This document shows, in pieces, positions 21,401-37,183 of a stretch of 64,000 nt of DNA. Location of the stretch: IMG/VR virus record IMGVR_UViG_3300030419_007010, positions 64,001 to 128,000 of that record; one strand, written 5' to 3'. Numbering within the stretch: the first letter of the stretch is position 1; each line of letters starts with the position of its first letter. The notes under the pieces were generated by a model. It was given only the letters and a program-made list of their open reading frames with translations, ran no database searches and was not told the origin of the DNA. Both the position numbers and the translations under genes were made by a program. This DNA comes from a virus.

Positions 21401-24400
21401 AATCATATATCGGAATGAGAGGCATAAAATAAAACAATTCTTGAATTATTCCAATTTTTATTCTAGCAGATATTAGGCCGGCTATAGCTGCTTTTTCTAT
21501 TGGCCTTAACTCTCGTCGACTATTTAAACGCGTTTTCTCTCTTTCTTTTAAGTCTCGCATTTGTTTTGACATTGCAGATGCCTGGGAAGCTTCATTTTTT
21601 GCAGCTTCTTTTCTAGGTTTCGTTTTTTTACTCCATTCTTTACAGAGAGCATTTTTTAGCCTTTGATTAATATCTTCTTTAAGAGCATTTATTGTTAAAA
21701 CGCCCTCGCTAAAATCTGGGTTTTCTGGCCAGCAAACTGCAGAATTAGGGAAAAGTTTTCCAAATATTCTTTCAAACGTTTTTAACTCAAATGCAGGAGA
21801 TTGAAGATTAATTTTAGCCATACTCCCTAATATTTTTTGAGTAATGAGCGGATGAGCAAAATTAGTAAAAAAGTCTTGTGACTTTCGTTTCATATTTTCA
21901 CTTAAAGAAACGTCCGGGTATACTTTTTTAATATGATCTTGAATTTTTTGTGTTACAAACTCCCCAAACGCTTTATCCGCAGTGTCGAAATTCAAATCCA
22001 AATTATCTAAAAGAGTTTTATATTCATCTGTGTAGGCAGATTTAAAGTTAATTTCTTTAATTACGTTTGATGAACCGGGAGTATAATCTACAACTCTTCG
22101 ATTGTCTATAACTTTAATATTAAAAGAATCGGCAGGCTCGTTTTCCTGTGTATCGTCGTTTAAAATTTCTAATTGTTTAATTTGATATTTTATAGAACGG
22201 CCAGGGCCGCCGGCTTTAATTAAATCAGGATCATTGTTATTATCTTCAATTTGTTCTAATGTATTAGAAATTATATCTATAGCTTCAGACAGGTTCTGAT
22301 CTCTGGTAGCTAGAAAATCAAATGACTGCGAGTACTTTCGCAATAGTTGGGCAGCTTCTTCATCTTTTCTTGGAATTTTAAGAATATGATAGTTCTCGCC
22401 TTCGACGTCCTTTTCCCAATAAAAATTTTCTTTGTTTTGAAGAGTTTTATAATAATGCGCGAATGTTATAAACTTTCCTAAATTCATAAGTTTGGCAATT
22501 GCGTCGTCTTCACCATCGGGAACTAGTTTTGGAAGCTCGACGATACCGCCATTATCTTCTAGAATACTTTGAGGAAGTGTATTAGGGATAACAAAATCGA
22601 CAGAACCGAGACCTACGAGGGAGAGGTCGGCCGAGCCCCAATTTATTAAATCGTTGTTGGATTTTACTTGACCTACCAAGAGGCTATCAAAAAAGCCACC
22701 TCCTTCAACAACAGAATCTTCTAGTTTTCTGGGAGGAAAAGAAGCTATAGGCAAGAATCCCGGGAGAGGAGAAGCATCAGTAAGAGGATTCCCTTTTGGT
22801 ATAGTCTTAAGAAACTTGGTTTTAACATCATTCTCATCCCAACTTGTATCAAAAGTTACCTCACCAGATAATGCTTCTGGGCGCATCATACCAACCCATT
22901 TTTCTGTTTCGAAACCACTAGCAGCGTTGGTGATATTCAAAAGATCTTCAGGCTTTAGATCTGATAGTAAACTACCAAGACCTCGAAGCTCGCGATAAAA
23001 ACTAATAAGAATATTATCAAATATCGCGTCCATAACAGAATCATTGGCCATTTGAAGGCCAGGAGGAACCCCAGGCATCAAAGCGCCGTCTCCACAATTT
23101 AATGGAGGCATTTTATCATCTAAATATTCGCTAGCGTCTGCTTGTAATAAACCGGCTAAACCTTTGAGCTTATTAAGATCGTTGGCTAGTTGTTCTTTAA
23201 CCTTCTTTGTACATTCATCTTCTGGTAAGCCTGCATCTTTCAGAGCTTGACACTTTTGTTCCGTGCTATATAGATCATTACAGAAATCTTCAGAAACTGT
23301 TACAAATGTTTCAAAATTATCGCAAATTTCTAAATCAAGTTGTGAGCCTAGATCCGAAAAGAAAAATCGTATATCAGACTTTCTAGATAAAGCCGGCATA
23401 TATTCAGGGAAATCTTCCTGAATCAGATCTAATATTGATCCTAAAACAATTTCAGAAGGTTTTCCTTGTAATAAACGACATAATTCTCTAGCCGTTAGCA
23501 TATCTGAAACCTTTCCTAAAAATTCTCGAATTCTATCTGGATGATTGGGAAGATTCCAATTTGCAAAAGCGTCTCTAGGGGGCGGGCCACCTTGCGGGCC
23601 GAAGCCTGGAATTAAGTTTGTAGCTCCGCCAAAGGACTGGCTTTCTTCGTCATCTTCAGCAAAACAATTCTTAAGATAATCATCCAAAACTGCTTTAATT
23701 GTTTTTGCAATTTGTTTTGCCAAGACCGTAACTGTAGCTTTATAGACATCTTTCCAAAATTGATGTGAAATGCCTGCAGGTTCCCAAAAACTTATCGGCT
23801 TGAATGTTGGCCACTCTGGCCACGAAGGCAGCGCTTCACCAAATTCTGGTAAAGAAAAATCTCCACTTAACCATCTTCCTGGTAAGTCCATTCCCATTTT
23901 AACCAAGTCTTCACACAACCTTCTTAAATCGACAAATTCTTTTAATCCTTCGACATATCTTTGAACTTGCTGTGCATTGTCACTCATTGCCCTAGCACCT
24001 GAAGAAATGTAAGATTCTTGGCTTCCTATAGTATCTCCCGCTTGGGCGATAGCTTCAGCTCCGGAAATAATACCATCGGCGACTGCTCCTGGTACTGCGG
24101 CGCCCTCTGCTAATTTACTAGCTGCAACAGGGTCTGGGGCGCCGGATGTAGCAGTCATTAATTCGGTGTTGGTCGCGACAGCCTGACCATAGACTTCTGC
24201 AGAAGAAGCTTCTGGATTATTGGCTGTTACTTCTGTTAGTAGCGCTTGGAATTGTTCATTCTGAACTATCTTTCTAGTTTTTGGATTGCCATACAGAATC
24301 GCAGAGAAGCCGGCGATTCCTATTTCAGTAACAACATAATTAATAATCATCTCGCATATTGCTTCAGGAGTGCTTGGCAAATCATTTTTTTCCAAGATGC

Positions 24401-27131
24401 ACTTAATAATTTCTTCTGCATAAATTTTGATATCAACTTCATTAGCAATTAATTTATAAATCTCGTGAAGTTCCGCTAGTGTTGCAGACAGCGCGGGGTG
24501 TTTTGACAACCAACTAACAGTTTCCTGATCCTTCATTGGATCGCCGACAGCTTCTTGTGAATTTCTTCTTTCTTGTAGAATTATCTCCTTACATTCAGTA
24601 TCTGCTAGAATTCTATTTTCAAACTGTAGTTCTTCTTCAGACATGACAGGAATTCTATCAAACAATTGCATTTTTCTAACACATTCTTCGTATTTTGGAT
24701 CTTTTTTGTTTTTTGAGGGCCTAATCGCTACAATTGGAAATACAAATTTTGATACAAAGTCAATCCACTCGTCAGTCGAAGCAGACTGGCCATCTATGAG
24801 CGCCGTCTCATCTATATCCGCAAATTCAACAGTGATTGTTGCCGGGTATTCATCGCTGACCATTGAGCCGGCAACTGGTGTGCCCGCTTCATTGTAAAAA
24901 CCTTTTGGCCCCGATCTAGTTTCCATATATTCTATTATTCTTTCAGCATAAAGTATAAAAGCCCAAGTTCTTGGAGATACTTTGGTTCTAAGATAATCTA
25001 GCCCAACAATAAAAGGAACTAAATCATTCGGGGGCTCTGGTCTTTCAAACGAAAAATATACAATATTTAATCCAGTGTCTAGTCCAATTTCTAGTTGTGT
25101 ATTATGATTTAAATCAGGTGGTATTGGCATCATCCAATCGGTAACATCCCCTGCTGGCTCTTTAAATTTAATAACCTTGCCGCCCTGGCCTCTGAATTTT
25201 AAAAATTTCTGTATATGTAGTATTGACTCTCTTAAGAGATTTGCTTCTTTTTTGCAGTCCAGCGTTAGTACTTCTCCGCCGGTACTTTTATAAGATTCAA
25301 CGCGGGGATGAAATCTCTCTAATATAGCTGCAACTTGATCAATTTGCTCTATCAAATCTGCAGCAGCACTACGATTGATAGTGTGGATATCCGAACTAGT
25401 TCTTGTTATTTCAGCAGTCAAAGCCCACCACGGCTCGTCTTTGTATTTTACTTCCACGGCTCCGATTGCTTCGTCTTGCCATTCTTTAAGATTTTTATTT
25501 GATAAAGCATCAAACACATTCTGGGGTGCTCCAATCAATACAGAAAGAGGCTTCTTAGAAGGTCGCGTTGAAAGCTCGTATTTAATATAACCGAATGGGC
25601 GCCCATCGGCGCCGGGTCCGTATAGATCATCTGAGACTGAAGTGTCATAATCTTCCACAAGGGAATCTATGTACGCTCTCGTTTGTGAGAACTTTTCTGG
25701 TTCTGGGTTAAGATCTTTACCATAAAATTTTAATAATCTGGCGGCGCCAATATAAACAGCACTCTTTAAATCTTTACTTAAAGCTTCTATTTTCTTATCT
25801 TCTGTTGTTTCTTTTTTGCTACTACTAGGAACATTTACTTTAATAATATAATAATATTCACCCTTCTGGCCTGTATATGGATTAAAATCAACAAAAAGAG
25901 GCTCTTCTTGTTCCAAGATATTGACCCAATTGTCTCCAGAAGTTGATTCAAAAGAAGCTTCGCCAGTAGGTACTACTGGTCCCGGGGGTGGCTCGTTGAC
26001 CTTTAATCTAGGTTTTTCTGTCCCAAATCTAGTTAAGAGGTTTGCATCAATCCACCAGCCAGCATCTTTTAATTTTGGTCCGCCAGGGCCGCCAGTAGTT
26101 GGATTAGATTGAAAACTCTTCCATATAGTCCACCATCTAAATGGGTGTGTAAAATCATGTATATTTTCATTTTTTAGTTCTTCGCCAGTATATGGATTAA
26201 TATAAGACGAATCGAAATATCCTTGTGACTCCAAGACTTTTTGAGGAGGAGCTATTTTACAAAAAGTAGTCCCTTTAATCTTCTTTGATTCAAGAATTTG
26301 TACTTGTGATTTCCAAGGTATAAGAAAATCAACTCCGGCCGGAGCGTCATAAGTCACCCAAATCGTTTCACCTAATTTAGGAAGCTTAGATGATGGATCC
26401 GGACGGCTGTCTGGGTCTAGCTCTGTTTTTAAAAGAGGTAACACTCCGCCAGTCCAGTCTGCTTCCTGTCGATCTGGATGTTCGTATATATGATTGGTTT
26501 TTCTTAAATCCCCTTGTTCATCTGCTGCTGCGATGGCGGCATCAAGATCATCTTCTAGGGCTTCAAAAGCAGCAAGAGAAGCTTCAACATCTTCAATTGT
26601 TTCATCATCGGCGCCGAGATTTGCAAATTCCGGATCTGTATCCGGATGTTTAAGATACATATATTTATGAAAAATATAGTGTGTAGCGCCTTCGAGCTTA
26701 TTAGGGGGCTCATGGTTAACAAGAGCGGGATCATGTGCGGGTCCGGAAGCTTGGTCGGGCGAGTCGGGCGTTTCTATATCGGCAACCGGCGAAGCGTATG
26801 GTAAATGAACTGTATCTCCGACTTTGCCGGCGGTGGCGCCATTAAAATCTTTCCATTCCCCTTGAATAACAATATTATGAAACGGCTTGTGGGGTATGTT
26901 AGTATTCGTGAGATTATAAATCTCCAGCATTGCTTGATATCCCTGGCCCGGGCCGGCTGGAGTATCATTCGGTCCGTTCCAGAAGTTGGGCTCGCTTGCT
27001 TTAATCTTTGAAAAAGGTGGCAATTGCCAAACTCTTTCTACTATTTGAGATAACCCCTCACCCGACTTAATTGTAGTTGTTGGGTCGTTGTTGATGTATT
27101 CTTTACCGTTTATTATTATTTTTGATGGCAT
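18498..27131 (-). CDS. Giant virion-associated protein (2877 aa) with LysM-like N-terminus and a His-rich insert
   Basis: Lies between the spike-like and gp25-like genes. N-terminal TIKSGEGLSQIV...LEIYNL.N...VGDTVHLP is LysM-like. Largely helical and acidic, with many spaced Cys and an HVH..HAH..HMH cluster. Confidence 0.6.
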   Translation of the reverse strand: MPSKIIINGKEYINNDPTTTIKSGEGLSQIVERVWQLPPFSKIKASEPNFWNGPNDTPAGPGQGYQAMLEIYNLTNTNIPHKPFHNIVIQGEWKDFNGATAGKVGDTVHLPYASPVADIETPDSPDQASGPAHDPALVNHEPPNKLEGATHYIFHKYMYLKHPDTDPEFANLGADDETIEDVEASLAAFEALEDDLDAAIAAADEQGDLRKTNHIYEHPDRQEADWTGGVLPLLKTELDPDSRPDPSSKLPKLGETIWVTYDAPAGVDFLIPWKSQVQILESKKIKGTTFCKIAPPQKVLESQGYFDSSYINPYTGEELKNENIHDFTHPFRWWTIWKSFQSNPTTGGPGGPKLKDAGWWIDANLLTRFGTEKPRLKVNEPPPGPVVPTGEASFESTSGDNWVNILEQEEPLFVDFNPYTGQKGEYYYIIKVNVPSSSKKETTEDKKIEALSKDLKSAVYIGAARLLKFYGKDLNPEPEKFSQTRAYIDSLVEDYDTSVSDDLYGPGADGRPFGYIKYELSTRPSKKPLSVLIGAPQNVFDALSNKNLKEWQDEAIGAVEVKYKDEPWWALTAEITRTSSDIHTINRSAAADLIEQIDQVAAILERFHPRVESYKSTGGEVLTLDCKKEANLLRESILHIQKFLKFRGQGGKVIKFKEPAGDVTDWMMPIPPDLNHNTQLEIGLDTGLNIVYFSFERPEPPNDLVPFIVGLDYLRTKVSPRTWAFILYAERIIEYMETRSGPKGFYNEAGTPVAGSMVSDEYPATITVEFADIDETALIDGQSASTDEWIDFVSKFVFPIVAIRPSKNKKDPKYEECVRKMQLFDRIPVMSEEELQFENRILADTECKEIILQERRNSQEAVGDPMKDQETVSWLSKHPALSATLAELHEIYKLIANEVDIKIYAEEIIKCILEKNDLPSTPEAICEMIINYVVTEIGIAGFSAILYGNPKTRKIVQNEQFQALLTEVTANNPEASSAEVYGQAVATNTELMTATSGAPDPVAASKLAEGAAVPGAVADGIISGAEAIAQAGDTIGSQESYISSGARAMSDNAQQVQRYVEGLKEFVDLRRLCEDLVKMGMDLPGRWLSGDFSLPEFGEALPSWPEWPTFKPISFWEPAGISHQFWKDVYKATVTVLAKQIAKTIKAVLDDYLKNCFAEDDEESQSFGGATNLIPGFGPQGGPPPRDAFANWNLPNHPDRIREFLGKVSDMLTARELCRLLQGKPSEIVLGSILDLIQEDFPEYMPALSRKSDIRFFFSDLGSQLDLEICDNFETFVTVSEDFCNDLYSTEQKCQALKDAGLPEDECTKKVKEQLANDLNKLKGLAGLLQADASEYLDDKMPPLNCGDGALMPGVPPGLQMANDSVMDAIFDNILISFYRELRGLGSLLSDLKPEDLLNITNAASGFETEKWVGMMRPEALSGEVTFDTSWDENDVKTKFLKTIPKGNPLTDASPLPGFLPIASFPPRKLEDSVVEGGGFFDSLLVGQVKSNNDLINWGSADLSLVGLGSVDFVIPNTLPQSILEDNGGIVELPKLVPDGEDDAIAKLMNLGKFITFAHYYKTLQNKENFYWEKDVEGENYHILKIPRKDEEAAQLLRKYSQSFDFLATRDQNLSEAIDIISNTLEQIEDNNNDPDLIKAGGPGRSIKYQIKQLEILNDDTQENEPADSFNIKVIDNRRVVDYTPGSSNVIKEINFKSAYTDEYKTLLDNLDLNFDTADKAFGEFVTQKIQDHIKKVYPDVSLSENMKRKSQDFFTNFAHPLITQKILGSMAKINLQSPAFELKTFERIFGKLFPNSAVCWPENPDFSEGVLTINALKEDINQRLKNALCKEWSKKTKPRKEAAKNEASQASAMSKQMRDLKEREKTRLNSRRELRPIEKAAIAGLISARIKIGIIQELFYFMPLIPIYDFKNLLYDDFFIEQTFARIKNAILEEQNSLLDVPDIFEFILEQSKEIIKETISAGAGKTREHPETPAPDGEISHVHTYVIDEEGNGYAKEIVEGDHPGHAHLIKNYLVQFADGHMHLLGEKHTLPNGDDAFKTLLKQEYSEVVEVVWNVFKSNKKKHKFIPRVRNHLDLFKWVGEMDRGYKSTEPGPIATSPATNSKTWPAMAGVTNLVKFGSGNEFATGEADTSMPSHIINKGVRYDRHEFWNPSADFRKLLQEDYEGNIIWDPSNQKNGGNLTSDAGVHPSSAYLPIKDHPGMFVLEPYIWIDHKESETAGESTLDANVYDVYNKKKPKFMDLLNENEVTVNGEVVGYSLNVSAKKEKIHEYGVADLNTWGKIMSEYINSSEDETSKVDDYFNNFCFGLRLVYQFPLYFSDDKYGYVGAETPLVRQTAKGVCDLLGEIQDDMDYHYDEGDIGRVSWVHKTFLGAVDRTPETESSDELANQRYAFTKIPLADVKIPVWKFSEELCERAADLAPKSSDLKISDLGDNKLVTMYYKGTIGAYSKLLKNLYASDDFKFLFKHVFKYERMLLLNAFYASYANTDIKDLSKFTGTKTIILSFMRNMLGDVDKLSDGVPFINSFGGPVGFSQMQNFTSTTGRFPENPLEDQLKAIVKETPKLILKALAEITDPCVMTGKAINDAIILIVETSLKVAEEVKKAAFDAHATVVDFNKGLVDGLFMIIKQIEQTIPPMEQQVEAMPTFNAEQQVEKEVKKQELQDLKEDLANKKQALVDALTLLYGEYKGDVPDGTGKTLEDNYPKEDYPQFYDNEKDWIKPPETKIYIAPNYLPGQSGQEGTRIEPTLDQEGDPRRSAWPGYENATAGIHPLAELDLEFRVAVRKTRNTMKAVDPYLLPIICFLLFPSTIPYGAGFIGWAPPPMGPGVGPPITPLGFIHLIMVSLGFGDDYDKWLNEEVETIETEKELSEEGEEC

Positions 27132-27141
27132 AATTTATTCT

Positions 27142-28074
27142 TTAATTTGTCTTATTCTTCTTACTCAAAAATGGTCTGTCTTGTGATAACCAGTATATCC
27201 TAAAATTATTAACTGTATTATAAAAATGTTCTATATCCATTTGTGTATCATCTGCTTGTTGAAACATTTTTTGTGGAACTTCAAGAATAGCATCTAGTGA
27301 CGCAAACGTTGGTTTTGCGAAAAAAGGAGAAGGATGATCGTGATGAGCTACAACTTTATTAATAGAAGTTTGATATCTAGTCCAAGTTTGAAAAATAGTA
27401 TTAGCACAATCGATTAAATATAAAATTTCTTCAAACATTAAAGCTAGCTGGTCGCCTTTAACCAGTGGTTCAAGGGCCGCATTTCCCCCGGTTCTGTTGC
27501 CAGCTATCAAGTGAATTCCGCCGATAGTTTCTAATTTACCATTTCTAGAATTAAAACCATCCATTCCTGTCACTAATTTTAAATTCTGCCTCGCCATAAT
27601 TCTAACTTCGTCCGCTTTAATGCCGATCCCGGATACTGCTTTTGGTTTTGGTCGCGGTTTTAAGCCAAAATAATCATCAATATCAGTTTTTTGGCTAATA
27701 TATATTCTTGCTGCATCTCTTTTGAAATCTGGATTTACAAACTGTGTTTCAAAATTAACTTCTCGGCACGGATGTCGGCCGACTACTATATCGATAGATC
27801 CGCATTGAGTATCTCCCTTACCACCATAGCCACTAGCTCTTCCAGATCGACGGTCTCGGCCGACTACTATATAAGCATTGTTTGCATTACTTGAACCTTC
27901 AACAACTTCTTCATAATCTGTTTTAATAAATATTGCGGACTGATCTACCGGTTTTTCTCCTGCAACTCCGCTTAATTTAAGCGTAACTAACTGTTCAGGA
28001 GTTAAATTTTTAAAAGTTACTTTATCTTCAGAAGATAAGCACTCTTGATCAATAGAGGGAATTTTTTTAGTCAT
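27142..28074 (-). CDS. Putative baseplate spike / gp5 C-terminal-like protein (310 aa)
   Basis: Beta-strand repeats (NAYIVVGRDR, SIDIVVGR, ARIYISQKTD, GIGIKADEVRIMAR, IHLIAGN), then EPLVKGDQL and an HDH motif like spike tips; immediately downstream of the gp5-like gene. Confidence 0.55.
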   Translation of the reverse strand: MTKKIPSIDQECLSSEDKVTFKNLTPEQLVTLKLSGVAGEKPVDQSAIFIKTDYEEVVEGSSNANNAYIVVGRDRRSGRASGYGGKGDTQCGSIDIVVGRHPCREVNFETQFVNPDFKRDAARIYISQKTDIDDYFGLKPRPKPKAVSGIGIKADEVRIMARQNLKLVTGMDGFNSRNGKLETIGGIHLIAGNRTGGNAALEPLVKGDQLALMFEEILYLIDCANTIFQTWTRYQTSINKVVAHHDHPSPFFAKPTFASLDAILEVPQKMFQQADDTQMDIEHFYNTVNNFRIYWLSQDRPFLSKKNKTN

Positions 28075-28078
28075 TTTA

Positions 28079-30694
28079 TTAAGTAGCTACAGGCTGTTTT
28101 GATGTATCCTTTCCTGCTTCTTCAGCATCCATCTCTTGCGCTAGAGAAAATTTGTAATAGTCTAAAAATACTGTTGCTTTTTTACTCGTATGCTGGCCTT
28201 CATAACCTGCTCCCGGTAAAGAAGCCCATATTTTTCTAATCTTTTTAACTGCCAAAAAAAACTGTTGTTCAAACATGTTAGTTGGTTTTGCTCCAACTTC
28301 TGGAATTGCTTGTATTGTTGGCGGGCGTGTATCTCGACCAGTGCCAAAATCGCGGCCTCCCTGGGCCCATTGTTCCGGAGAGACAAAATTTTCTCCGCCT
28401 TCTTCTAGGATTCTTTTAATACCCTGGCTAGCTAAAAAATTAGCAACACATCTATCTTGATTCAATGGGCTAAAATCATTTTCATCAGAAGTATATAATT
28501 TACCCCATCCCGGTTTACCATTTTTGCCAAACCATGTTCCTTCCATAAACTGATATCTTCCTGCTGCAGTTGAATTATTTTTCCATTCCAGTGATTTTCC
28601 ATTTTCGTCGACTCTTCCAGTAAATCGATCCGACCATTTAAATAAAAGCCTGGGATGTCCGCCTTCATATCCAACAAAAGAATTTCCAACTGGTGATTTT
28701 GGCCCTAAACGAGTCGCTTCATTAGCATTTGTGTATTTCGGTAGGCCATTCTGGGCGCGTTGGAGAACAAAATCTCCTCCTACACATAGTTGGTATGGAC
28801 TAATACCGGAATGAGATTTTCGGCCACCTTCTCCAATAACGATCATTCTCATAAAAGCTCGTATATATTTTGTAGCATTTTTGTTTCCATCTTTTTTAGC
28901 CTCTTCCCAATTAAGGGCCAAAGGCTCAGTTTCATGTCTGTTTTTTGTGTTTCTGGTCCCCGGGGTACAAGGATCACAAGGTACAGGCTTACTAGCTTTA
29001 TCGTCCTCTTCTAACAATTCTTCAATAGCCTCTGCTTCTGCCTGCAGGTTATCTAGTTGCTCAGATACTACAGTTGTGTCTTCTCCCTTTTCTTGCATCT
29101 GCATTAATTGTTCTGTTTTAATATTGATTTCTTCATTTATTTTAGATAATTTTTCAACATATTCTTCTCTTTGTTTAGTAGAAATAGCTTTCGGCATTTT
29201 TTCATATTTTTTTATGTCTCTATCAAGTTCTTTTAATCTTTCTTGATCTCGTTCTGCTTCGGGAAGCTGCAAGATCTCGTCCTTTTCTTTTTTAGCAGCA
29301 AACAAGGCCGCAACTGGGTCTATTGATACTTTTGGAGATTTGCTCGACTGGGGGCCGGGGGCGGCCGATTTAGTAGAAGTTAACGACATTCCTCGCTCTT
29401 CGCTGGCTACTTTTTTAACATACTCCAAAGCAGCCTCTGTTGTTAAGTGTACGCCGTCGCCGCCGGGTGATTGATAGTTTGGTAAATAATGATCTTTTCC
29501 GGCGTAATTATCGTTGGCAGACCCAATTGGATTAATAAAAAATAAAGTTTTATCATATTCTGAAAAAGTTTTTAGAGCTTCTTCAATTACTAAATTAACG
29601 TTTTCTCTATAATTCCAGTATCCAGGCTGATCCCAATCGTGGCGCGGTACTTTGAAACCGGAAGACTTATTTGCAACAGTCGGCGGACACCCGAACCACA
29701 TAACAGTTTTCGATGATCCCAAACATTGTTTTGCTAGATCTATAGTTTTTGTTATAAATTCCTTTTTCCACGCTTTATATCCAGAGCTTCCAGGAGGATT
29801 ACTGGAACCATAATTGCTATTGCCGCCCAGACTAATGATAACCAACTCCGGATTTGTCGCCAGTCCGTCGTCTAAGAAGCCTTTTAATTCAAACCCAGGA
29901 GGATTTGGTTTTAAATCTACAGTTTTCCCTGGTTTTCTCCAGTGCCTCACTGCAGAACCTGATCGGGCCTTTCTTTTTATTGCCCACCCATGATGTTTTA
30001 AATAAGTTTCGAAAACTTGTCCAAACTGGCCTACCATTTGACTGTCACCAAACAAAAAAGCTGAACTATTGCTGCTCTTTGGCTTTAAAGAACCCCTTGG
30101 AGCAGGAAACAAACTAACATCGATTTTTCCGTCGGAGCCGGCCTTTCTTTGCAAACACCCTTGTCCCGGGGCGTATTCAAGGCAATTTCTTGAGCTTCTT
30201 TTAGTTCTTCCAAGGTTTAATCTTCCAGCCTTATCTTCTAGATAATCTTTATAAATAGGAGCATCTAAATTTTCTGCTCCCAAGTGAGAAACCAAAACTC
30301 GATCCCCGACGCGAGGGACGGGTAATCTATTATGTGCTGCCGTATATGTAGGGTGCATATCTATAACATAGTGATCCTTTGGTGAGCGAGGTTCTGAAAT
30401 CTGGGCATGCAATTCTGGGACTCTTACTTTGATTCTAATATGAGTTCTTCTGCGCGGCTGTTCATCGGATGCATCGAGAAAATTATTAGGTTCTGTCGTG
30501 CGACCCTCAACTCTTAGTACTACCCCAATCCAATCAACTCTTTTTGACAAAGCATCAGAAGAATAATGAGATTCCTGAATTTCTCTGGACATATCCTCAT
30601 AAGTGCTTACTTGAGAATCATATCTTGCCCCAAAAGTCTTTTGTGATACCGGATTTAAGTCTCCGTAAGCCGACCAATTGAAACTAAAACTCAC
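28079..30694 (-). CDS. gp5-like baseplate hub/lysin: OB-fold + SGNH hydrolase + coiled coil + lambda-R-type lytic transglycosylase (871 aa)
   Basis: OB-like: WIGVVLRV..RIKVRVPELH..PVPRVGDRVLV. SGNH blocks: FGDSQ, RSGS, SLGGN, DGVH. Lambda R-like: AFMRMIVIGEG, GHPR, STAAGRYQF, DFSPLNQD, IWASLPGAGY. Confidence 0.85.
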   Translation of the reverse strand: MSFSFNWSAYGDLNPVSQKTFGARYDSQVSTYEDMSREIQESHYSSDALSKRVDWIGVVLRVEGRTTEPNNFLDASDEQPRRRTHIRIKVRVPELHAQISEPRSPKDHYVIDMHPTYTAAHNRLPVPRVGDRVLVSHLGAENLDAPIYKDYLEDKAGRLNLGRTKRSSRNCLEYAPGQGCLQRKAGSDGKIDVSLFPAPRGSLKPKSSNSSAFLFGDSQMVGQFGQVFETYLKHHGWAIKRKARSGSAVRHWRKPGKTVDLKPNPPGFELKGFLDDGLATNPELVIISLGGNSNYGSSNPPGSSGYKAWKKEFITKTIDLAKQCLGSSKTVMWFGCPPTVANKSSGFKVPRHDWDQPGYWNYRENVNLVIEEALKTFSEYDKTLFFINPIGSANDNYAGKDHYLPNYQSPGGDGVHLTTEAALEYVKKVASEERGMSLTSTKSAAPGPQSSKSPKVSIDPVAALFAAKKEKDEILQLPEAERDQERLKELDRDIKKYEKMPKAISTKQREEYVEKLSKINEEINIKTEQLMQMQEKGEDTTVVSEQLDNLQAEAEAIEELLEEDDKASKPVPCDPCTPGTRNTKNRHETEPLALNWEEAKKDGNKNATKYIRAFMRMIVIGEGGRKSHSGISPYQLCVGGDFVLQRAQNGLPKYTNANEATRLGPKSPVGNSFVGYEGGHPRLLFKWSDRFTGRVDENGKSLEWKNNSTAAGRYQFMEGTWFGKNGKPGWGKLYTSDENDFSPLNQDRCVANFLASQGIKRILEEGGENFVSPEQWAQGGRDFGTGRDTRPPTIQAIPEVGAKPTNMFEQQFFLAVKKIRKIWASLPGAGYEGQHTSKKATVFLDYYKFSLAQEMDAEEAGKDTSKQPVAT

Positions 30695-30696
30695 TA

Positions 30697-30999
30697 TTAA
30701 TCCTCCGATTTATTGATCAAATCAAAAATATCTTCCTTGTCTTGAGAAGTTAAACCGTCTTTCGTAGCAGTTCTTTTGTGTACCAAGCCAGCTATCTTTA
30801 CTAGTTGTTCATTTGATCTTTGAAGAGTCTCTAAATACTTCGAAGCAACTTGGCCAAGCTCCTTATGATCATAATTATTGTTCATACTTTTCATAAGGTC
30901 TGTTAATAAAGTTAAAGCCAGCGCCCTATCATTTTCGATATTCTCGCTGGCTGAAGTTATATATCCATCGATATCTTTTATGTTTTTCCCTCGTCCCAT
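30697..30999 (-). CDS. Hypothetical helical protein (100 aa)
   Basis: ORF coupled between the sigma-like and gp5-like genes; no recognised motif. Confidence 0.7.
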   Translation of the reverse strand: MGRGKNIKDIDGYITSASENIENDRALALTLLTDLMKSMNNNYDHKELGQVASKYLETLQRSNEQLVKIAGLVHKRTATKDGLTSQDKEDIFDLINKSED

Positions 31000-31679
31000 T
31001 TTCTTTTAAACGTCCTATACTTTGATCTTATTTTATTAAGATTATTAACAACTTGCTTTGTATTAAGACCAGTTATTTCCCTAATGTATAGATAAATAGC
31101 TTTTTTATTAAAAATTTCGATTTCATCAACAGTTTCGAAAAGTATCTTTACTGCTTCAAGCACTTTTTTTTCATTATCTTTTAATTTTAAGTTATCCCAA
31201 GAATTAATTTCTTTCCAAAGATGTTGCCAAAATTCAAAATGTTCTCGATCGCTTTCATATGGATGATCAATGGAAAAGTGTTTTTGATGTACATCTCCGG
31301 AGATCTCTTCATATTGAACTTCTCGCTGGAGATTTCTGCTGTTTCTTTTTACCTTATGAATAAACCAATTCTTTGTAATAACACTGAAATAGGAAAATGC
31401 TTTTGACTTCTTCGACGGATCATACTTGTCCAAGATAGTCATAAGCCATACTTTACATTCTTCTTTAAGACTGTCTATATTTGGTAGATTCGTGAACTTA
31501 TATGTATAGACAATCTTATCAACCATTTCGTTAAAAGCCGGCTCTATATACAATACATAAAGTTCTGTTCTTACTTTATTATCTTCAGTTGAAGCATATT
31601 GAATAATTGCTTCTTCATGAACTTTTACAAAATAGTTATTTTTTTTAGGCTTCTTCGTCTTCTTCTGGCTCGTTGTCAT
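30978..31679 (-). CDS. Phage RNA polymerase sigma-like factor (T4 gp55-like late sigma), 233 aa
   Basis: NYFVKVHEEAIIQY, EMVDKIVYTYKF, KYDPSKKSKAFSYFSVITKNWFI match the sigma region 2 pattern of phage late sigma factors; helical HTH-like C-terminus. Confidence 0.75.
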   Translation of the reverse strand: MTTSQKKTKKPKKNNYFVKVHEEAIIQYASTEDNKVRTELYVLYIEPAFNEMVDKIVYTYKFTNLPNIDSLKEECKVWLMTILDKYDPSKKSKAFSYFSVITKNWFIHKVKRNSRNLQREVQYEEISGDVHQKHFSIDHPYESDREHFEFWQHLWKEINSWDNLKLKDNEKKVLEAVKILFETVDEIEIFNKKAIYLYIREITGLNTKQVVNNLNKIRSKYRTFKRKWDEGKT

Positions 31680-32302: not shown

Positions 32303-32490
32303 TACTGCTCATCAAATTCTGTTTCATCATCATTTTCAAACTTGACGATCGGGGGATTCATAACAAATAATTCTCCCGAGGCCTCTTGAAAGTCAAGATC
32401 TTTAATCATTGGAACAATATCACTTTGCTCCATCAAACACTTTTGCAAGCACATCATTAAAGAACCGACTGCTTCATCTGATAATTTCAT
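32302..32490 (-). CDS. Hypothetical protein (62 aa; start revised to MKLSDEAVG)
   Basis: GGAGGT SD before the ATG at 32490, which overlaps the upstream TGA (ATGA). Confidence 0.65.
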   Translation of the reverse strand: MKLSDEAVGSLMMCLQKCLMEQSDIVPMIKDLDFQEASGELFVMNPPIVKFENDDETEFDEQ

Positions 32491-33326
32491 TTCAAACCTC
32501 CAAAACATTTTCTAATGCCATCTTCAATTGGCATTTTTACTTTCCAACCTAATCCTGCTAGAGAACTAGTATTGGCTTTTGTATACATCACATCACCAGG
32601 ACGTGGTGCAACATAATCAAACTCGACTTCCGGACAATATTCCAGCACGATCTCTTTCATTTCGTTCAAGGAAATATTATCCCCTGTTCCTGCATCAAAT
32701 ACTCTGCCATCAAATCGATCGTTGTGTTCCATAGCAAAGATATTAGCAGATACTGCGTCATGAACATAAAGCATATCCCTACGCTGATCACCATTGCCAG
32801 TAATAAACGGATTTTTTCCTGTTCTAATATAGTGCATCCAATTACAAACTGCTGTCGCATAAGGGCCAGATGCTTCTTGATCTTCTGAATAAACATTAAA
32901 ATATCGCAGTGTTACTGTATCAATACCATATAGTTGCGAATATAGTTTTGTTTCTAATTCTGAAGTTAATTTTTGTAACGCATACGGGCTTGTTGGACCC
33001 TCTCCGTTACCAACTACAGAGGATGAGCCAGAGTAAATAACTCTTTTTGCTCCTACTTTCTTGGCGAAGTCCAACACTATGCTAGTTGATATAATGTTAT
33101 TAATCGCCGTGTGGACTGGTTGCTCGACGCTGTAAGCGACTCGCGGGATGCACGCTAGGTGGAATATGTATTCTGGTGCAAAGTCGACTAGGTGGTCTAA
33201 ACCATCTAATATATCTTCCTCTTCTAGAAGGTCAATACCTCTCACTTCGTGGCCCAACTCTTCTAATTTCTTATATAAGTGGGTTCCTATATAACCTTTG
33301 TGACCTGTTACTAAACATCTACTCAT
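32487..33326 (-). CDS. NAD-dependent epimerase/dehydratase (extended SDR)
   Basis: LVTGHKGYIG, SGSSSV, YALQK (YxxxK), LRYFNVY, GNGDQRRD. Confidence 0.92.
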   Translation of the reverse strand: MSRCLVTGHKGYIGTHLYKKLEELGHEVRGIDLLEEEDILDGLDHLVDFAPEYIFHLACIPRVAYSVEQPVHTAINNIISTSIVLDFAKKVGAKRVIYSGSSSVVGNGEGPTSPYALQKLTSELETKLYSQLYGIDTVTLRYFNVYSEDQEASGPYATAVCNWMHYIRTGKNPFITGNGDQRRDMLYVHDAVSANIFAMEHNDRFDGRVFDAGTGDNISLNEMKEIVLEYCPEVEFDYVAPRPGDVMYTKANTSSLAGLGWKVKMPIEDGIRKCFGGLK

Positions 33327-34164
33327 CTGATACAGCCCTTCCTTTTAACTGCTCCCAGTCCTTCTCTGGTCTTACTTCTAAATTGGTTTTCCATGCAGCT
33401 TCCGCTATGTTGCTTGATAATCCCAAGCTTCTAGCAAAGTCTGCAAAAGCATTGATATCTTTTGGAAAACAACTACCGCCAAATCCCCATCTGCCATCAG
33501 GGCCGGGGACATTAACATGCGAGTCACCAACTCGGCCGTCTGAAACAAATCCTTCTAGCGCTGTGTCCCAATCTGCTCCGACTTCATCAACTAGCCTTCT
33601 CATTTCATTACAGAAAGCTACTTTGACAGCGAAAAAGACGTTATTAAAATACTTAATAAATTCAGCAGTTTCGTAATCAGTTTCGATTATCTTTGGTCTT
33701 TGAAATCTCATATTATATAATTCAGCAACCCTCTTTGTAGCTTCGGGATAACCTCCTAAAACTATTCTAGCTTGATTCATAAAATCAAACTTTGCAGTTC
33801 TTTCTGTTAAGAATTCCGGATTAAATACAATATTTAAATTAGGAAAATTATTTCTCATTTCCCTTGTTGTCCCGGGAATTACAGTTGACTTAAGCACGAC
33901 GACTGTATCTTCTTTTGGCTTTAAGCTTGATACTTCTTCTAGTACTGAATAGACTATGTTAAGATTAATCGAACCGTCCTTATTCATTGGTGTTGGTACA
34001 GAAACAAAAATAACATCTGATTCTTTTACTACCTCTTCCATAGAGTTCATAGACTTTAATGGGTCTTTGTCATGTACTAAAACCGGGACTACGGGACTTA
34101 GGCCAAACGATATGGACGAGCCAACAAATCCATGCCCAATCACGCCTACTTTTTCTACTTTCAT
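33319..34164 (-). CDS. UDP-glucose/GDP-mannose 6-dehydrogenase family, short form (281 aa)
   Basis: GVIGHGFVG, FVSVPTP, KSTVIPGTT, FNPEFL, catalytic GFGGSCFPKD; lacks the C-terminal domain. Confidence 0.9.
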   Translation of the reverse strand: MKVEKVGVIGHGFVGSSISFGLSPVVPVLVHDKDPLKSMNSMEEVVKESDVIFVSVPTPMNKDGSINLNIVYSVLEEVSSLKPKEDTVVVLKSTVIPGTTREMRNNFPNLNIVFNPEFLTERTAKFDFMNQARIVLGGYPEATKRVAELYNMRFQRPKIIETDYETAEFIKYFNNVFFAVKVAFCNEMRRLVDEVGADWDTALEGFVSDGRVGDSHVNVPGPDGRWGFGGSCFPKDINAFADFARSLGLSSNIAEAAWKTNLEVRPEKDWEQLKGRAVSDE

Positions 34165-34177
34165 TTATTATTTCCTT

Positions 34178-35830
34178 TTATTTTTTATAAACAAGAATAT
34201 CATATTCAATAAAATACAGATAATCTATGTTCGTGTTAAGAAAACATTCTATTGCGTTTGTTGGGGTTTCTACAATAGGTTCTCTGTCATTAAAGCTAGT
34301 ATTTAAAACTATTGGTACACCAGTTTTCATATGAAACTTTTTAATCAAATCATAATACAGCTTATTTTGTTCGGCAGTTACTGTTTGAATTCTCGCTGTT
34401 TGATCTTTGTGTTCAACTGCGGGTGCCTTACCTAACTTGTCCGACTTAAACTTAAATACAAAGCCCATATATGGAGACGGAAAATAGTTTTCGAACCACT
34501 CGTTTCCACACTCCTCAAGAACAGAAGGGGCAAATGGACGATACCATTGTCTGTGTTTTACTTTTTCATTAATTAATGATTTCATCTGATGGCTAATAGG
34601 ATTAGCTAAGATACTTCTGTTTCCTAGCGCGCGTCGGCCAGATTCAGATCTGCCTTGAAAAACACTAATTATATTGTCCTCTATAAGTAACTCAACACAT
34701 TCATCTAAAGAACACTTTCTTACAGCTAGCTTATCAATATTATTTTCGATTGATTTTTCAACATCTTCTCTGCTGTAGACTTCTCCAAGATATGGAGAAA
34801 CAAAATCATCTAGGTTTCTTTCATTGTTTAAAACGGAAAACCAGTGATATTGACATGCACCAATAGATAATCCTCCGTCGTAAGGGACGGGAGGTACAAA
34901 TACATTCTTTATTATTCCATCAAATTTACTCTTAATTTTTCCAGTAAAAGAAGAATTTAAGCTAACGCCGCCGGCTAGGCAAAGATTATCAAATTCAATA
35001 TTATTGTTTTTTGCTAACCCAACCATTTGATTAATAATATCAAAAAGTATATCTTCTGTCACTTTTTGAAGTGCAGCTGCAAGATTCATTTTTTCTTTTT
35101 CATCTTTCTCAGCTATCTTTCTAAATTTGTCTAAATATGGATGAACTACATCTTCTTCTGGAGGAACATACACACCACGTTTATATCCCGGAGGACAGAA
35201 TTTTACATATGGAAAATCTTCAGTAGCCATCTTCATAAAATCTTTGTAATATTTTTGCGGATCTCCAAATGCGGCCATGGCCATAATTGAACCAGCCTGG
35301 TGACCTCTCGGATACCCTGATGATAGCTTAAATATGAACCTTGTGCATCTTCCCCATAAATTACCCAGGCTCATGATATCATTATTTATTTCGAAAAGAT
35401 TTGTTATCTTATTACCTTTTCCATAATATCCAGAAGTAGATATTGAATTGCCTTCTTCGTTTATTCCAGCACTATCAATAGTTAATATTAAGCTATTTTC
35501 ATAGGGAGAGGAATAAAAAGCATGTGCAGCATGACACAAATGATGTCCATAAAAATTAATTTTATCTTTTGATAATCTATCGTGAGTATTATATGTTTCG
35601 CCGCCGTTAGCTTCTAGGTTTGTATTTGGCAAAGGAGAGACCCAATGATCTATATCTTCCATATCCAAGTTATTTTTAGACAAATATTTTTCTTCTAAAT
35701 ATAGTAGAGAATCTCCACCAGATTCTTTTAAGCGAGTATATCTTTCTATTTCAATGTGCTCTACGACTTTTCCGTCATCTAAAACACAATAGCCGCCGTC
35801 GTGCCAATTATATAATCCAACAACTTTCAT
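34178..35830 (-). CDS. O-carbamoyltransferase, NodU/CmcH family (550 aa)
   Basis: HDGG, ERYTRLK, HHLCHAAHAF, LAGGVSLN, GRSESGRRALGNRSILA, RPFAPSV, LNTSFN..EPIVETP. Confidence 0.93.
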   Translation of the reverse strand: MKVVGLYNWHDGGYCVLDDGKVVEHIEIERYTRLKESGGDSLLYLEEKYLSKNNLDMEDIDHWVSPLPNTNLEANGGETYNTHDRLSKDKINFYGHHLCHAAHAFYSSPYENSLILTIDSAGINEEGNSISTSGYYGKGNKITNLFEINNDIMSLGNLWGRCTRFIFKLSSGYPRGHQAGSIMAMAAFGDPQKYYKDFMKMATEDFPYVKFCPPGYKRGVYVPPEEDVVHPYLDKFRKIAEKDEKEKMNLAAALQKVTEDILFDIINQMVGLAKNNNIEFDNLCLAGGVSLNSSFTGKIKSKFDGIIKNVFVPPVPYDGGLSIGACQYHWFSVLNNERNLDDFVSPYLGEVYSREDVEKSIENNIDKLAVRKCSLDECVELLIEDNIISVFQGRSESGRRALGNRSILANPISHQMKSLINEKVKHRQWYRPFAPSVLEECGNEWFENYFPSPYMGFVFKFKSDKLGKAPAVEHKDQTARIQTVTAEQNKLYYDLIKKFHMKTGVPIVLNTSFNDREPIVETPTNAIECFLNTNIDYLYFIEYDILVYKK

Positions 35831-35833
35831 ATA

Positions 35834-36562
35834 TCATTCCTCAAATTCTTTTTTAATTAAAACTTGTCCATAATCAATTTCGTCATCTGGTACCCTTCTA
35901 TCATCAAAAAAGATTCGCCTGTCCATAATAATAAGCTCTTTTTCATGATCGTCAATCTCGTCAATAGCTTTTGCACACTCAATATTATCTACTTTTTTAG
36001 TAGGAAGATGATAATCATCAAAAAGAAGAAATTTTGTAAATTTATTTTTTGTTAAAATCCAATCAGATTTAGTAGCTTGGTATGTATGGTCTCCATCAAT
36101 ATAAACAAAATCAAATTCTTCATTTAATGATAATAGAATATTTTGTGAAAAGCCTGGGATGAGTTGTATATTATTTTCAGTGAACCAGTGGTTCGGAAAA
36201 GTGTTTCTTAGCCTGTCTACATGATTTTTTGTTTCTTGATTATGGAAAAGTGGGTCTATAGAAACAATCTTGCCTCCGCCGTTTTCTGCTAGTGCTTTGG
36301 CTGCGCATATAGTTCCGTATCCTCTACCAAAACCAATTTCTAGAAATGATTTAAGGTTGTACTTCTTGATTAGATGATATATTAAAATGCCTCTTTCATA
36401 ATTTGGTCTAAAGAAACATCCTACTTTTTTATAGAGTTCGCTGTCAGGTGAACGCGTTTTCTTTGCGGTATGTTCTCCAATTTGATCAAAATCGCCTAGA
36501 TTAATATCGTCTAGTGGATACCCAAGCTCTTCTAACTTTTCTATTATATGAATTTGTTCCAT
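35834..36562 (-). CDS. Class I SAM-dependent methyltransferase (Methyltransf_24-like)
   Basis: FLEIGFGRGYG, SIDP, FDFVYIDGDHTY, LFDDY. Confidence 0.85.
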   Translation of the reverse strand: MEQIHIIEKLEELGYPLDDINLGDFDQIGEHTAKKTRSPDSELYKKVGCFFRPNYERGILIYHLIKKYNLKSFLEIGFGRGYGTICAAKALAENGGGKIVSIDPLFHNQETKNHVDRLRNTFPNHWFTENNIQLIPGFSQNILLSLNEEFDFVYIDGDHTYQATKSDWILTKNKFTKFLLFDDYHLPTKKVDNIECAKAIDEIDDHEKELIIMDRRIFFDDRRVPDDEIDYGQVLIKKEFEE

Positions 36563-37183
36563 TTATATCTCCCAATCTTTGTATTCTGGTTCTTTAGTTT
36601 TATTGTTATTATGCATTCTGTAACGATAAAATGGATATCTAAGATGATGAATCTTATAAAAATCACCTAATCTTTTTCGTAAGTTCTCTTCTTCTTTGTG
36701 TCGCATATTAGGATCATATGCACCCATTTCAACAAGTAAATCTTTTCTGTACATTATACCACAAGAAATATTGTCTTTTTCAGCATATTTTCTCTCTAAA
36801 ACATTTTCATAATTGTCTATCAAAATATAGTCACAAGATACACAGAACGCGTCGTGATTTGCTTCTAAATATTCCTTCATAAAATAGCACATATCATCAG
36901 AAACATAATCGTCAGCATCAACACGAATAACAAATTGCCCTTTAGCTGCTTTTATTCCTTTGTTGGCGGAAGCTGCAACTCCTAAATTCTTCTTGTTTTT
37001 TATTAATTTAATGTCATCCAAGAAGGGAACCATAACTTCCCAAGATTTATCTGTGCTCTTATCATCTACAACAATTACTTCAACATTAACATTCTTCTGA
37101 TTTAAACAGCTTCTAATGCATCTAGCAATATATCTTGAATAATTATAGTTAGTTATAATAATTGAAACATCAGGATTAGACAT
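36563..37183 (-). CDS. Glycosyltransferase family 2 (start revised to MSNPDVSII)
   Basis: SIIITNYN, VIVVDDKSTD, NLGVAASANKG, RVDADD. Confidence 0.9.
   Translation of the reverse strand: MSNPDVSIIITNYNYSRYIARCIRSCLNQKNVNVEVIVVDDKSTDKSWEVMVPFLDDIKLIKNKKNLGVAASANKGIKAAKGQFVIRVDADDYVSDDMCYFMKEYLEANHDAFCVSCDYILIDNYENVLERKYAEKDNISCGIMYRKDLLVEMGAYDPNMRHKEEENLRKRLGDFYKIHHLRYPFYRYRMHNNNKTKEPEYKDWEI

What the first reader, a model, noticed from the sequence alone, without database searches (positions are those of the whole stretch)
28079..30694. Tail lysin fused to an SGNH esterase: possible built-in counter to peptidoglycan O-acetylation
Seen: one 871-aa protein joins a gp5-like OB segment (~30290-30540), a complete SGNH set (GDS at 30041-30049, G, GGN, DGVH at 29447-29458), a coiled coil, and a lambda-R-like domain that keeps the catalytic Glu (AFMRMIVIGEG; STAAGRYQF; WASLPG; ~28200-28860). 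Established: lambda R is a lytic transglycosylase that needs a free MurNAc C6-OH; C6 O-acetylation blocks such enzymes; Ape1-type de-O-acetylases are SGNH hydrolases. Inference: the injection hub removes O-acetyl groups and then cleaves the wall, a two-step strategy in one polypeptide that I do not know from characterised gp5 proteins.
Basis: partly seen in the sequence, partly recalled or inferred. Interest (0 to 1): 0.88.

Follow-up and report, generated by a model that had tools for sequence, protein, structure and literature searches.

The report
Phage tail-hub lysin with built-in esterase
A marine phage's injection-hub protein joins a spike-type anchor domain, an intact acetyl-esterase-type domain and a lambda-type cell-wall cutter, and related phages keep esterase and cutter together, which fits (but does not prove) removal of protective acetyl groups from the cell wall before it is cut.

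Summary
ORF 28079-30694 (-) encodes an 871-aa protein with four parts: a gp5/gpV/VgrG-type OB fold (about 52-153), an SGNH domain with the full catalytic set (S218, G246, N292, D413/H416), about 110 residues of long helices, and a lambda-R-type lytic transglycosylase (hhalign 99.5%, E 8e-23, catalytic Glu = E622). It lies in a baseplate module: gp55, 100 aa, this gene, 310 aa, a giant protein, gp25, gp6.

The N-terminal domain defines a large uncultured-phage family (more than 130 clusters at 50% identity) with swapped wall-degrading cargo. Intact SGNH domains pair with three different glycan-cutting domain types and never with the common VanY peptidase. In one relative the hub, the SGNH and the coiled coil plus transglycosylase are three adjacent genes in the same order.

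By Pfam, PDB profile and structure, the SGNH domain is nominally nearest to PatB, the peptidoglycan O-acetyltransferase, and to OafB, rather than to Ape1. It remains unproven: substrate, host and host wall acetylation are unknown.

The nearest precedent is the S. aureus phage phi11/80alpha Tal (gp27-like hub plus SGNH, activity unknown). I class this as a new variant of a known kind, of moderate to high interest. The scan had noted this same stretch once before, on this same genome.

The parts
28079..30694 (-). Whole gene: 871-aa hub lysin (P0001)
   Evidence: ORF and translation; five full-length homologues at 55-70% identity with the same architecture
30236..30541 (-). OB-fold domain, residues about 52-153 (the family-wide N-terminal domain spans residues 9-151)
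   Evidence: AF2 pLDDT about 90. VIA Z 7.8-5.2 to the spikes of P1, VgrG1, A-1(L), Mu, AFP, phiKZ, R2 pyocin and P2 gpV. Atlas clusters carry Gp5_OB or Phage_base_V. More than 130 clusters at 50% identity share the domain.
30074..30238 (-). Low-confidence linker, residues 153-207, with a conserved Cys pair (NCLEYAPGxGCL, residues 170-181)
   Evidence: pLDDT 35-50; the motif is conserved in all five full-length homologues
29405..30073 (-). SGNH esterase-type domain, residues 208-430; S218 (30041-30043), G246, N292 (29819-29821), D413 (29456-29458), H416 (29447-29449)
   Evidence: Pfam DUF459/PatB and Lipase_GDSL_2 below cut-off. S, N, D and H are invariant in 15 diverse copies. VIA Z 16.5 to CjPatB, 15.2 to NgPatB, 14.3 to Ape1. 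PDB profile: OafB 1e-5, CjPatB 1e-3, Ape1 0.01.
28991..29317 (-). Long helical, coiled-coil-like stalk, residues 460-568
   Evidence: Helices 460-475, 484-498, 506-536 and 541-568 at pLDDT 85-96; heptad-like spacing and 51% charged residues plus Gln
28961..28981 (-). Invariant PCDPCxP motif (C573, C576) at the end of the stalk
   Evidence: Invariant in six sequences; function unknown
28115..28882 (-). Lambda-R-type lytic transglycosylase domain, residues about 605-860; catalytic E622 (28829-28831); two insertions relative to lambda R
   Evidence: hhalign 99.5%, E 7.8e-23 against lambda R. PDB profile hit 1am7/3d3d at E 6e-7. phrog_90 endolysin at 3e-15. E622 and the STAAGRYQ, DFSPxNQD and WASLP motifs are conserved across 19 sequences. 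The AF2 model of this domain is poor (pLDDT 30-65).
27142..28074 (-). Conserved downstream 310-aa gene; possibly the beta-helical needle (lead only)
   Evidence: Syntenic homologues in four related contigs at 31-43% identity. The nearest named Atlas clusters are DUF2345, Gp5_C and Gp5_trimer_C at 0.82-0.84, below the trust level.
30697..30999 (-). Conserved upstream 100-aa gene of unknown role
   Evidence: 44-57% identical, in the same position, in related contigs
30978..31679 (-). gp55-type late sigma factor (context)
   Evidence: phrog_234 at 1e-5; homologues in Flavobacterium phage immuto and Microcystis phage Mel-JY01
16236..18466 (-). gp25-like and gp6-like baseplate wedge genes (context)
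   Evidence: PHROG baseplate wedge families at 5e-11 to 5e-22; PF04965 GPW_gp25 on the syntenic homologue

Best explanation
This is the enzyme-carrying central hub protein of the contractile tail of an uncultured marine T4-like myovirus. The OB domain seats it in the baseplate centre, as the OB domains of gp5, gpV and VgrG do. The helical stalk probably oligomerises the chains. Two enzyme domains are carried into the periplasm when the tail fires. The SGNH domain is an active serine esterase that strips O-linked acetyl groups from the glycan strands of peptidoglycan (MurNAc C6). The lambda-R-type lytic transglycosylase needs that free C6 hydroxyl to form the 1,6-anhydro bond, and it then opens a hole for the tail tube. 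Shown here: the domain identities, the intact catalytic residues, the baseplate context, and the evolutionary linkage of the esterase with glycan cutters. Inferred: presence in the virion, oligomeric state, the esterase's substrate, and the order of action.
For: Domain identities. Baseplate synteny is conserved in five independent contigs. Among about 140 N-terminal-domain proteins, 13 carry an SGNH domain with all catalytic residues. Their partners are lambda-type transglycosylase (5), PF11860 muramidase (2), a phi6-P5-like domain (4) and unknown (2). None carries VanY, which about 40 of the others do. Naive Fisher tests give p = 0.02 for the absence of VanY and 7e-8 for the excess of glycan cutters. 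The SGNH carriers lie at several separate places on the N-terminal-domain tree, some nested among VanY carriers. In contig L011 the hub OB protein, a stand-alone intact SGNH (P0099) and a coiled coil plus lambda-type transglycosylase (P0133) are three consecutive genes in the same order. The nearest characterised SGNH relatives act on envelope-glycan acetyl groups. DUF459/PatB is the best Pfam family in 5 of 6 close homologues (best E 1e-8). CjPatB is the nominal top structural match (Z 16.5, rmsd 3.0, 187 residues). OafB, PatB and Ape1 are among the top PDB profile hits. From established knowledge: lambda R is a lytic transglycosylase, and C6 O-acetylation blocks such enzymes (review PMC9487903 for PatB/Ape1 chemistry).
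Against: There is no biochemical data. The host is unknown, so it is unknown whether its peptidoglycan is O-acetylated. The PatB and OafB matches are weak: the window protein scores 21.2 bits against the 27.2 cut-off, and structural Z values within 1 unit tie PatB with generic GDSL esterases. PatB and OafB are transferases, not esterases. Virion SGNH domains characterised so far deacetylate O-antigen or capsule (tailspike hits; papers). The co-occurrence statistics are not corrected for phylogeny, and the hit list was biased by a query that itself contained SGNH and transglycosylase. Calling domain X1 a glycan cutter rests on weak matches (E 0.005-0.03). A tandem paralogue in L001 combines an SGNH (block III Asn replaced by Arg) with an unidentified domain X2.
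Confidence: 0.5

Rival explanations
1. The architecture and location are the same, but the SGNH domain removes acetyl or other acyl groups from another envelope glycan (O-antigen, capsule, or another surface or periplasmic polysaccharide). That would clear or recognise the surface before penetration, as tailspike esterases do.
For: The best PDB profile hit is the SGNH domain of the O-antigen acetyltransferase OafB (6se1, E 1e-5). Many phage tailspike and tail-fibre SGNH proteins resemble it structurally. The literature on virion SGNH enzymes concerns O-antigen or capsule deacetylation.
Against: Those enzymes sit on peripheral spikes or fibres, not on the central OB hub. Here the domain is covalently or syntenically tied to peptidoglycan glycan cutters of three kinds and never to VanY.
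Confidence: 0.22
2. The SGNH domain is a lipase, phospholipase or lipoprotein esterase that helps the tail tip breach the outer or inner membrane. The transglycosylase deals with the wall independently.
For: SGNH/GDSL enzymes include lipases and phospholipases. Phospholipase A1 (4hyq, Z 13.3) and TesA appear among the matches.
Against: Lipid-active members rank below the carbohydrate-active ones in every search. A membrane-breaching role would not predict selective pairing with glycan cutters over peptidases.
Confidence: 0.1
3. The PatB-like domain works as an acyl transferase rather than an esterase. It would modify peptidoglycan around the entry site, for example to limit damage or to block host autolysins or superinfecting phages.
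For: The nearest characterised relatives, PatB and OafB, are O-acetyltransferases that use the same Ser-His-Asp machinery (PMC9487903).
Against: No acetyl donor or PatA-like partner is evident for a virion protein in the periplasm. O-acetylation would inhibit the transglycosylase fused to it.
Confidence: 0.05
4. The protein is not a virion component but a soluble lysis-stage endolysin that happens to carry an OB domain.
For: phrog_90 is annotated as endolysin. No proteomic data exist.
Against: The OB fold is of the central-spike type. The position within the baseplate module is conserved in five contigs. The family's modular cargo mirrors known tail lysins.
Confidence: 0.03

Closest known systems
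T4 gp5 (baseplate hub subunit and tail lysozyme) and its P2 gpV / T6SS VgrG relatives
   Same: It has an N-terminal OB fold of the central-spike type, carries a muralytic domain on the hub, and lies in a baseplate gene module with gp25- and gp6-like genes.
   Different: There is no significant sequence match to T4 gp5 (hhalign probability 0.9%). The muralytic domain is lambda-R-type, not T4-lysozyme-type. The polypeptide has no beta-helix needle: a helical stalk takes its place and a separate 310-aa gene may supply the needle. An additional SGNH domain is present.
Lambda R endolysin (lytic transglycosylase; PDB 1am7, 3d3d)
   Same: The catalytic domains are homologous, with the single catalytic Glu and the STxAGRYQ, DFSPxxQD and IWASLPGAGY motifs.
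   Different: Here it is the C-terminal domain of a structural hub protein, with two insertions of about 30-50 residues. Lambda R is a free lysis-stage enzyme.
PatB (DUF459, PF04311), the peptidoglycan O-acetyltransferase of Gram-negative bacteria
   Same: It is the best-scoring Pfam family for the close homologues and the nominal top structural match. The Ser/Asn/Asp-His machinery and a W-x-G-x-P-P strand after block III are shared.
   Different: The window protein is below the Pfam cut-off. There is no membrane anchor or PatA partner, and the domain is embedded in a phage protein. The likely reaction direction is hydrolysis rather than transfer (inference).
Ape1 (O-acetylpeptidoglycan esterase; PDB 4k3u, 8gkd)
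   Same: It shares the SGNH fold and catalytic set, and its activity is the one proposed here.
   Different: Ape1 carries an inserted beta-sandwich domain that is absent here. It ranks below PatB in both sequence and structure (E 0.01; Z 13.9-14.3).
Tal of S. aureus siphophages phi11 (gp44) and 80alpha (gp59)
   Same: A tail-tip hub protein carries an SGNH/GDSL domain thought to act on the cell wall, and its activity is likewise unestablished (PMC4876445, PMC7048315).
   Different: The hub domain is gp27-like rather than a gp5-type OB fold. No glycan-cutting domain is fused. The host is Gram-positive and the phage is a siphovirus.

Membership tests
SGNH hydrolase superfamily | Block I GDS with the nucleophile Ser | tested here: met
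   GDSQ at 216-219; S218 is invariant in 15 diverse copies
SGNH hydrolase superfamily | Block II Gly and block III Gly-x-Asn (oxyanion hole) | tested here: met
   G246 is present here but variable in homologues; GGN at 290-292 with N292 invariant
SGNH hydrolase superfamily | Block V Asp-x-x-His | tested here: met
   D413 and H416 are invariant
SGNH hydrolase superfamily | Three-layer alpha/beta/alpha fold | tested here: met
   AF2 pLDDT above 90; VIA Z 13-16.5 to many solved SGNH enzymes
PatB / DUF459 (PF04311) | Score above Pfam's gathering cut-off | tested here: not met
   21.2 bits against a 27.2 cut-off for the window protein. Five of six close homologues match, with a best E of 1.2e-8.
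PatB / DUF459 (PF04311) | N-terminal membrane anchor and a partner MBOAT (PatA) | tested here: not met
   The domain is internal to a phage hub protein. No PatA-like gene was seen among the neighbours examined.
PatB / DUF459 (PF04311) | O-acetyl transfer to MurNAc C6 | not testable with these tools
   Needs an enzyme assay
Ape1 O-acetylpeptidoglycan esterase | SGNH domain interrupted by a beta-sandwich (CBM35-like) insertion | tested here: not met
   The domain is 223 residues without such an insertion. Only 188-193 of 350-365 Ape1 residues align.
Ape1 O-acetylpeptidoglycan esterase | Esterase activity on O-acetylated peptidoglycan | not testable with these tools
   Needs an enzyme assay
Lambda R-type lytic transglycosylase | Homology to lambda R across the catalytic domain | tested here: met
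   hhalign 99.5%, E 7.8e-23; PDB profile E 6e-7
Lambda R-type lytic transglycosylase | Single catalytic Glu (lambda E19) | tested here: met
   E622 aligns with E19 and is invariant in 19 sequences
Lambda R-type lytic transglycosylase | Product is 1,6-anhydro-MurNAc | not testable with these tools
   Needs muropeptide analysis
T4 gp5-type hub lysozyme | N-terminal OB fold of the central-spike type | tested here: met
   VIA Z 5.2-7.8 to spike proteins; Atlas clusters with Gp5_OB or Phage_base_V. The sequence match to T4 gp5 is not significant.
T4 gp5-type hub lysozyme | T4-lysozyme-type middle domain | tested here: not met
   The muralytic domain is lambda-R-type and C-terminal
T4 gp5-type hub lysozyme | C-terminal triple beta-helix needle in the same chain | tested here: not met
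   No beta-rich region follows the OB fold; helices occupy 460-568. The neighbouring 310-aa gene is only a weak lead for a needle.
T4 gp5-type hub lysozyme | Trimer seated in a gp27-like cup | not tested
   No gp27 homologue was sought in the window. The one homotrimer job gave no verdict (see Tried and rejected).

The most novel reading that the evidence does not exclude
Peptidoglycan O-acetylation acts as a barrier to phage genome injection in marine Gram-negative bacteria. A whole lineage of uncultured marine myoviruses counters it with a de-O-acetylase built into, or encoded next to, the injection hub. That would make this the first phage-borne O-acetylpeptidoglycan esterase, derived from the PatB/OafB-like branch of SGNH enzymes rather than from Ape1.
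Probability: 0.4. Interest if true: 0.8.

Novelty: new variant of a known kind. Interest (0 to 1): 0.62.

Why it matters
O-acetylation of peptidoglycan is known as a defence against lysozymes and as a control on bacterial autolysins. Its role against phage entry has hardly been examined. A hub protein that carries both an acetyl esterase and an acetylation-sensitive wall cutter is a ready-made test case, using three constructs: wild type, S218A and E622A. The wider family has one conserved OB anchor with interchangeable cargo (VanY peptidase, muramidase, transglycosylase, SGNH and unknown domains). It is not covered by Pfam or PHROGs, so it would improve annotation of marine phage baseplates and offers a catalogue of natural wall-degrading modules.

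Tried and rejected
- tblastn of the protein against 50,697 phage records found no match.
- No Pfam or PHROG family covers the N-terminal domain.
- A profile of 132 N-terminal domains against PDB sequences gave nothing significant.
- hhalign of that profile against T4 gp5 gave probability 0.9%. The alignment looks sensible but is not significant, so the OB assignment rests on structure.
- The AF2 model of the transglycosylase domain is of low confidence (pLDDT 30-65). Its identity rests on sequence profiles.
- Homotrimer prediction of residues 6-200 gave no verdict (score 0.00). This is not evidence either way.
- Domain X2 (L001 second paralogue, P0010, P0048, P0114, P0093): I suspected a LAS/M15 metallopeptidase from an H..D..H-like pattern. 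hhalign against the VanY profile gave probability 2%, and neither PDB nor Pfam gave a hit. It stays unidentified.
- Domain X1 against the lambda-type transglycosylase profile showed no relation. It has only weak phi6 P5, Peptidase_U40 and Transglycosylas hits.
- The cultured relatives Flavobacterium phage immuto and Microcystis phage Mel-JY01 share gp55, gp25 and gp6, but their proteins at this position do not match the N-terminal, SGNH or transglycosylase profiles.
- A profile search for longer SGNH fusions added almost nothing.
- Host inference: relatives cannot be drawn for a virus record. No RNA holder is listed among the sequencing runs.
Full report
**Observation**

The minus-strand ORF 28079-30694 is real and encodes 871 residues. 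Five full-length metagenomic homologues (55-70% identity) begin at the same position and share the architecture.

**C-terminal domain**

A profile of 19 related domains aligns with lambda endolysin R at hhalign probability 99.5%, E 7.8e-23 and 33% identity. Lambda's catalytic Glu19 falls on E622. E622 and the STAAGRYQ, DFSPxNQD and WASLP motifs are conserved across the 19 sequences. A whole-protein profile also finds the lambda lysozyme structures 1am7 and 3d3d at E 6e-7. The domain has two insertions relative to lambda R. AlphaFold modelled it poorly, so its identity rests on sequence.

**SGNH domain**

Residues 208-430 fold with pLDDT above 90. S218, N292, D413 and H416 are invariant in 15 copies that are only 24-31% identical to the window's.

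- Pfam matches are below cut-off. DUF459 is the best family in five of the six close homologues (best E 1.2e-8, against 0.003 for Lipase_GDSL_2).
- DUF459 is the PatB family of peptidoglycan O-acetyltransferases (PMC9487903; bioRxiv 10.1101/2024.09.17.613324).
- A domain profile against PDB sequences ranks OafB's SGNH domain first (6se1, 1e-5), then C. jejuni PatB (1e-3). Ape1 (0.01) and N. gonorrhoeae PatB (0.012) come close behind.
- Structural alignment puts CjPatB nominally first (Z 16.5, rmsd 3.0 Å, 187 residues). It is tied within one Z unit with generic GDSL esterases. NgPatB scores 15.2 and Ape1 13.9-14.3.

The domain therefore belongs with the SGNH enzymes that handle acetyl groups on envelope glycans. 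It sits nearer the transferases than Ape1 and lacks Ape1's inserted domain.

**N-terminal domain**

No Pfam, PHROG or PDB sequence match exists, and hhalign to T4 gp5 is insignificant. A model built on 132 homologues (pLDDT 80) is an OB fold.

- Its best Foldseek and VIA matches are central spikes of contractile systems: P1, VgrG1, cyanophage A-1(L), Streptomyces CIS, AFP, Mu, PVC, phiKZ, R2 pyocin and P2 gpV (Z 7.8-5.2).
- These Z values are middling, and ribosomal OB proteins are interleaved.
- The ESM-Atlas shape search returns only viral or CIS clusters, several carrying Gp5_OB, Phage_base_V or VgrG families.

Together with the gene order (gp55-like sigma, 100 aa, this gene, 310 aa, 2877 aa, gp25-like, gp6-like), I accept a gp5/gpV-type hub anchor. 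That order is conserved in contigs L001/L003, L008, L009 and L011.

There is no beta-helix in this chain. Residues 460-568 are long helices, followed by an invariant PCDPC motif. The conserved 310-aa neighbour is a weak lead for the needle.

**The family**

An exhaustive profile search found 492 proteins at E ≤ 0.001. Most of the best 150 share only the N-terminal domain. With local HMMs I assigned the cargo:

| Cargo | Representatives |
|---|---|
| VanY peptidase | about 40 |
| PF11860 muramidase | about 16 |
| Lambda-type transglycosylase | 6 |
| X1 (weak phi6 P5 / Peptidase_U40 matches) | 4 |
| X2 (unidentified) | 5 |
| None recognised | 69 |

Thirteen representatives carry an SGNH domain with all catalytic residues. 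Their cargo is lambda-type transglycosylase (5), muramidase (2), X1 (4) or unknown (2). None has VanY.

Naive Fisher tests give p = 0.02 for the absence of VanY and 7e-8 for the excess of glycan cutters. These tests have three weaknesses: they are not phylogenetically corrected, the list was biased by the query, and X1's nature is tentative. On the N-terminal tree the SGNH carriers occur at several places, and two are nested among VanY carriers.

Degenerate SGNH copies also exist. P0022 and P0113 have lost the nucleophile Ser. A tandem second paralogue in L001 has Arg in place of the block III Asn and carries X2.

**Split version**

In L011 the gp55 is 58% identical to the window's. There the module is three consecutive genes: a 402-aa OB hub protein, a 229-aa stand-alone intact SGNH (P0099), and a 310-aa protein with an N-terminal coiled coil and a lambda-type transglycosylase (P0133). 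The homologue of the window's 310-aa gene and a giant protein follow. Fusion in one lineage and adjacency in another argue that esterase and transglycosylase work together.

**Mechanism**

Shown: the domain identities, intact catalytic sites, baseplate context and esterase-cutter linkage.

From established knowledge: lambda R makes 1,6-anhydro-MurNAc using the C6 hydroxyl, and C6 O-acetylation blocks that reaction.

Inferred: the SGNH domain hydrolyses those acetyl groups in the periplasm after tail firing, which lets the transglycosylase act.

I put this at about 0.5. The rivals are deacetylation of another envelope glycan (0.22), a lipid esterase (0.1), a PatB-like transferase role (0.05) and a non-virion endolysin (0.03).

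**Context and precedent**

The genome is a single 161.7-kb phage contig from marine metagenomes. Its nearest cultured relatives are only distantly related, and the host is unknown.

The closest published precedent is the Tal protein of S. aureus phages phi11 and 80alpha. It is a gp27-like hub with a C-terminal SGNH domain whose activity is not established (PMC4876445, PMC7048315). A prophage survey has speculated that phage SGNH enzymes might de-O-acetylate peptidoglycan (PMC9862828). My literature searches found no described hub protein that fuses an SGNH domain to a lytic transglycosylase.

**Verdict**

This is a new variant of a known kind (virion-associated wall hydrolases), and it comes with a large unannotated modular family. 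Interest is 0.62.

Noticed in passing
window 28961-28981 (-), residues 572-578: A PCDPCxP motif is invariant in all six close homologues. It lies directly after the helical stalk and before the transglycosylase domain. It could be an inter-chain disulfide or a metal site on the symmetry axis.
   Followed up: no
window 30146-30187 (-), residues 170-183: A conserved Cys pair (NCLEYAPGxGCL) lies in the otherwise low-confidence linker between the OB and SGNH domains.
   Followed up: no
window 27142-28074 (-): This 310-aa gene always follows the hub lysin in related contigs (31-43% identity). The nearest named Atlas clusters are DUF2345, Gp5_C and Gp5_trimer_C at 0.82-0.84. It may be the beta-helical needle encoded separately from the OB domain.
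   Followed up: partly
L001:3148-5562 (+): A related phage has a second, tandem hub-like gene (804 aa). It has the same N-terminal domain, an SGNH domain whose block III Asn is replaced by Arg, and an unidentified C-terminal domain (X2) shared with P0010, P0048, P0093 and P0114.
   Followed up: partly
L011:4790-7639 (+): The hub, the SGNH and the coiled coil plus transglycosylase are three separate adjacent genes here, a natural split form of the window's fusion.
   Followed up: yes
window 18498-27131 (-) and 3982-14697 (-): Giant 2877-aa and 3571-aa proteins lie inside the baseplate module. The 2877-aa protein has no Pfam match at E ≤ 0.01. Similar giant genes follow the hub lysin in related contigs.
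   Followed up: no
window 32487-38810 (-) and beyond: A block of sugar-nucleotide and tailoring genes (epimerase, UDP-glucose dehydrogenase, carbamoyltransferase, methyltransferase) lies next to the late sigma and baseplate genes. A similar sugar block precedes the hub module in L011.
   Followed up: partly
genome G000:C1:144665-145016 (-), outside the window: The phage encodes a one-piece tmRNA with tag ANDNVANYALAA, and one tRNA-Thr. The tag resembles proteobacterial ANDxxYALAA tags (from memory), which is a possible host clue.
   Followed up: partly
proteins P0007-P0155: The roughly 150-residue N-terminal OB domain defines a family of more than 130 clusters at 50% identity. No Pfam or PHROG model detected it, and 69 members have C-terminal parts with no recognised domain.
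   Followed up: partly
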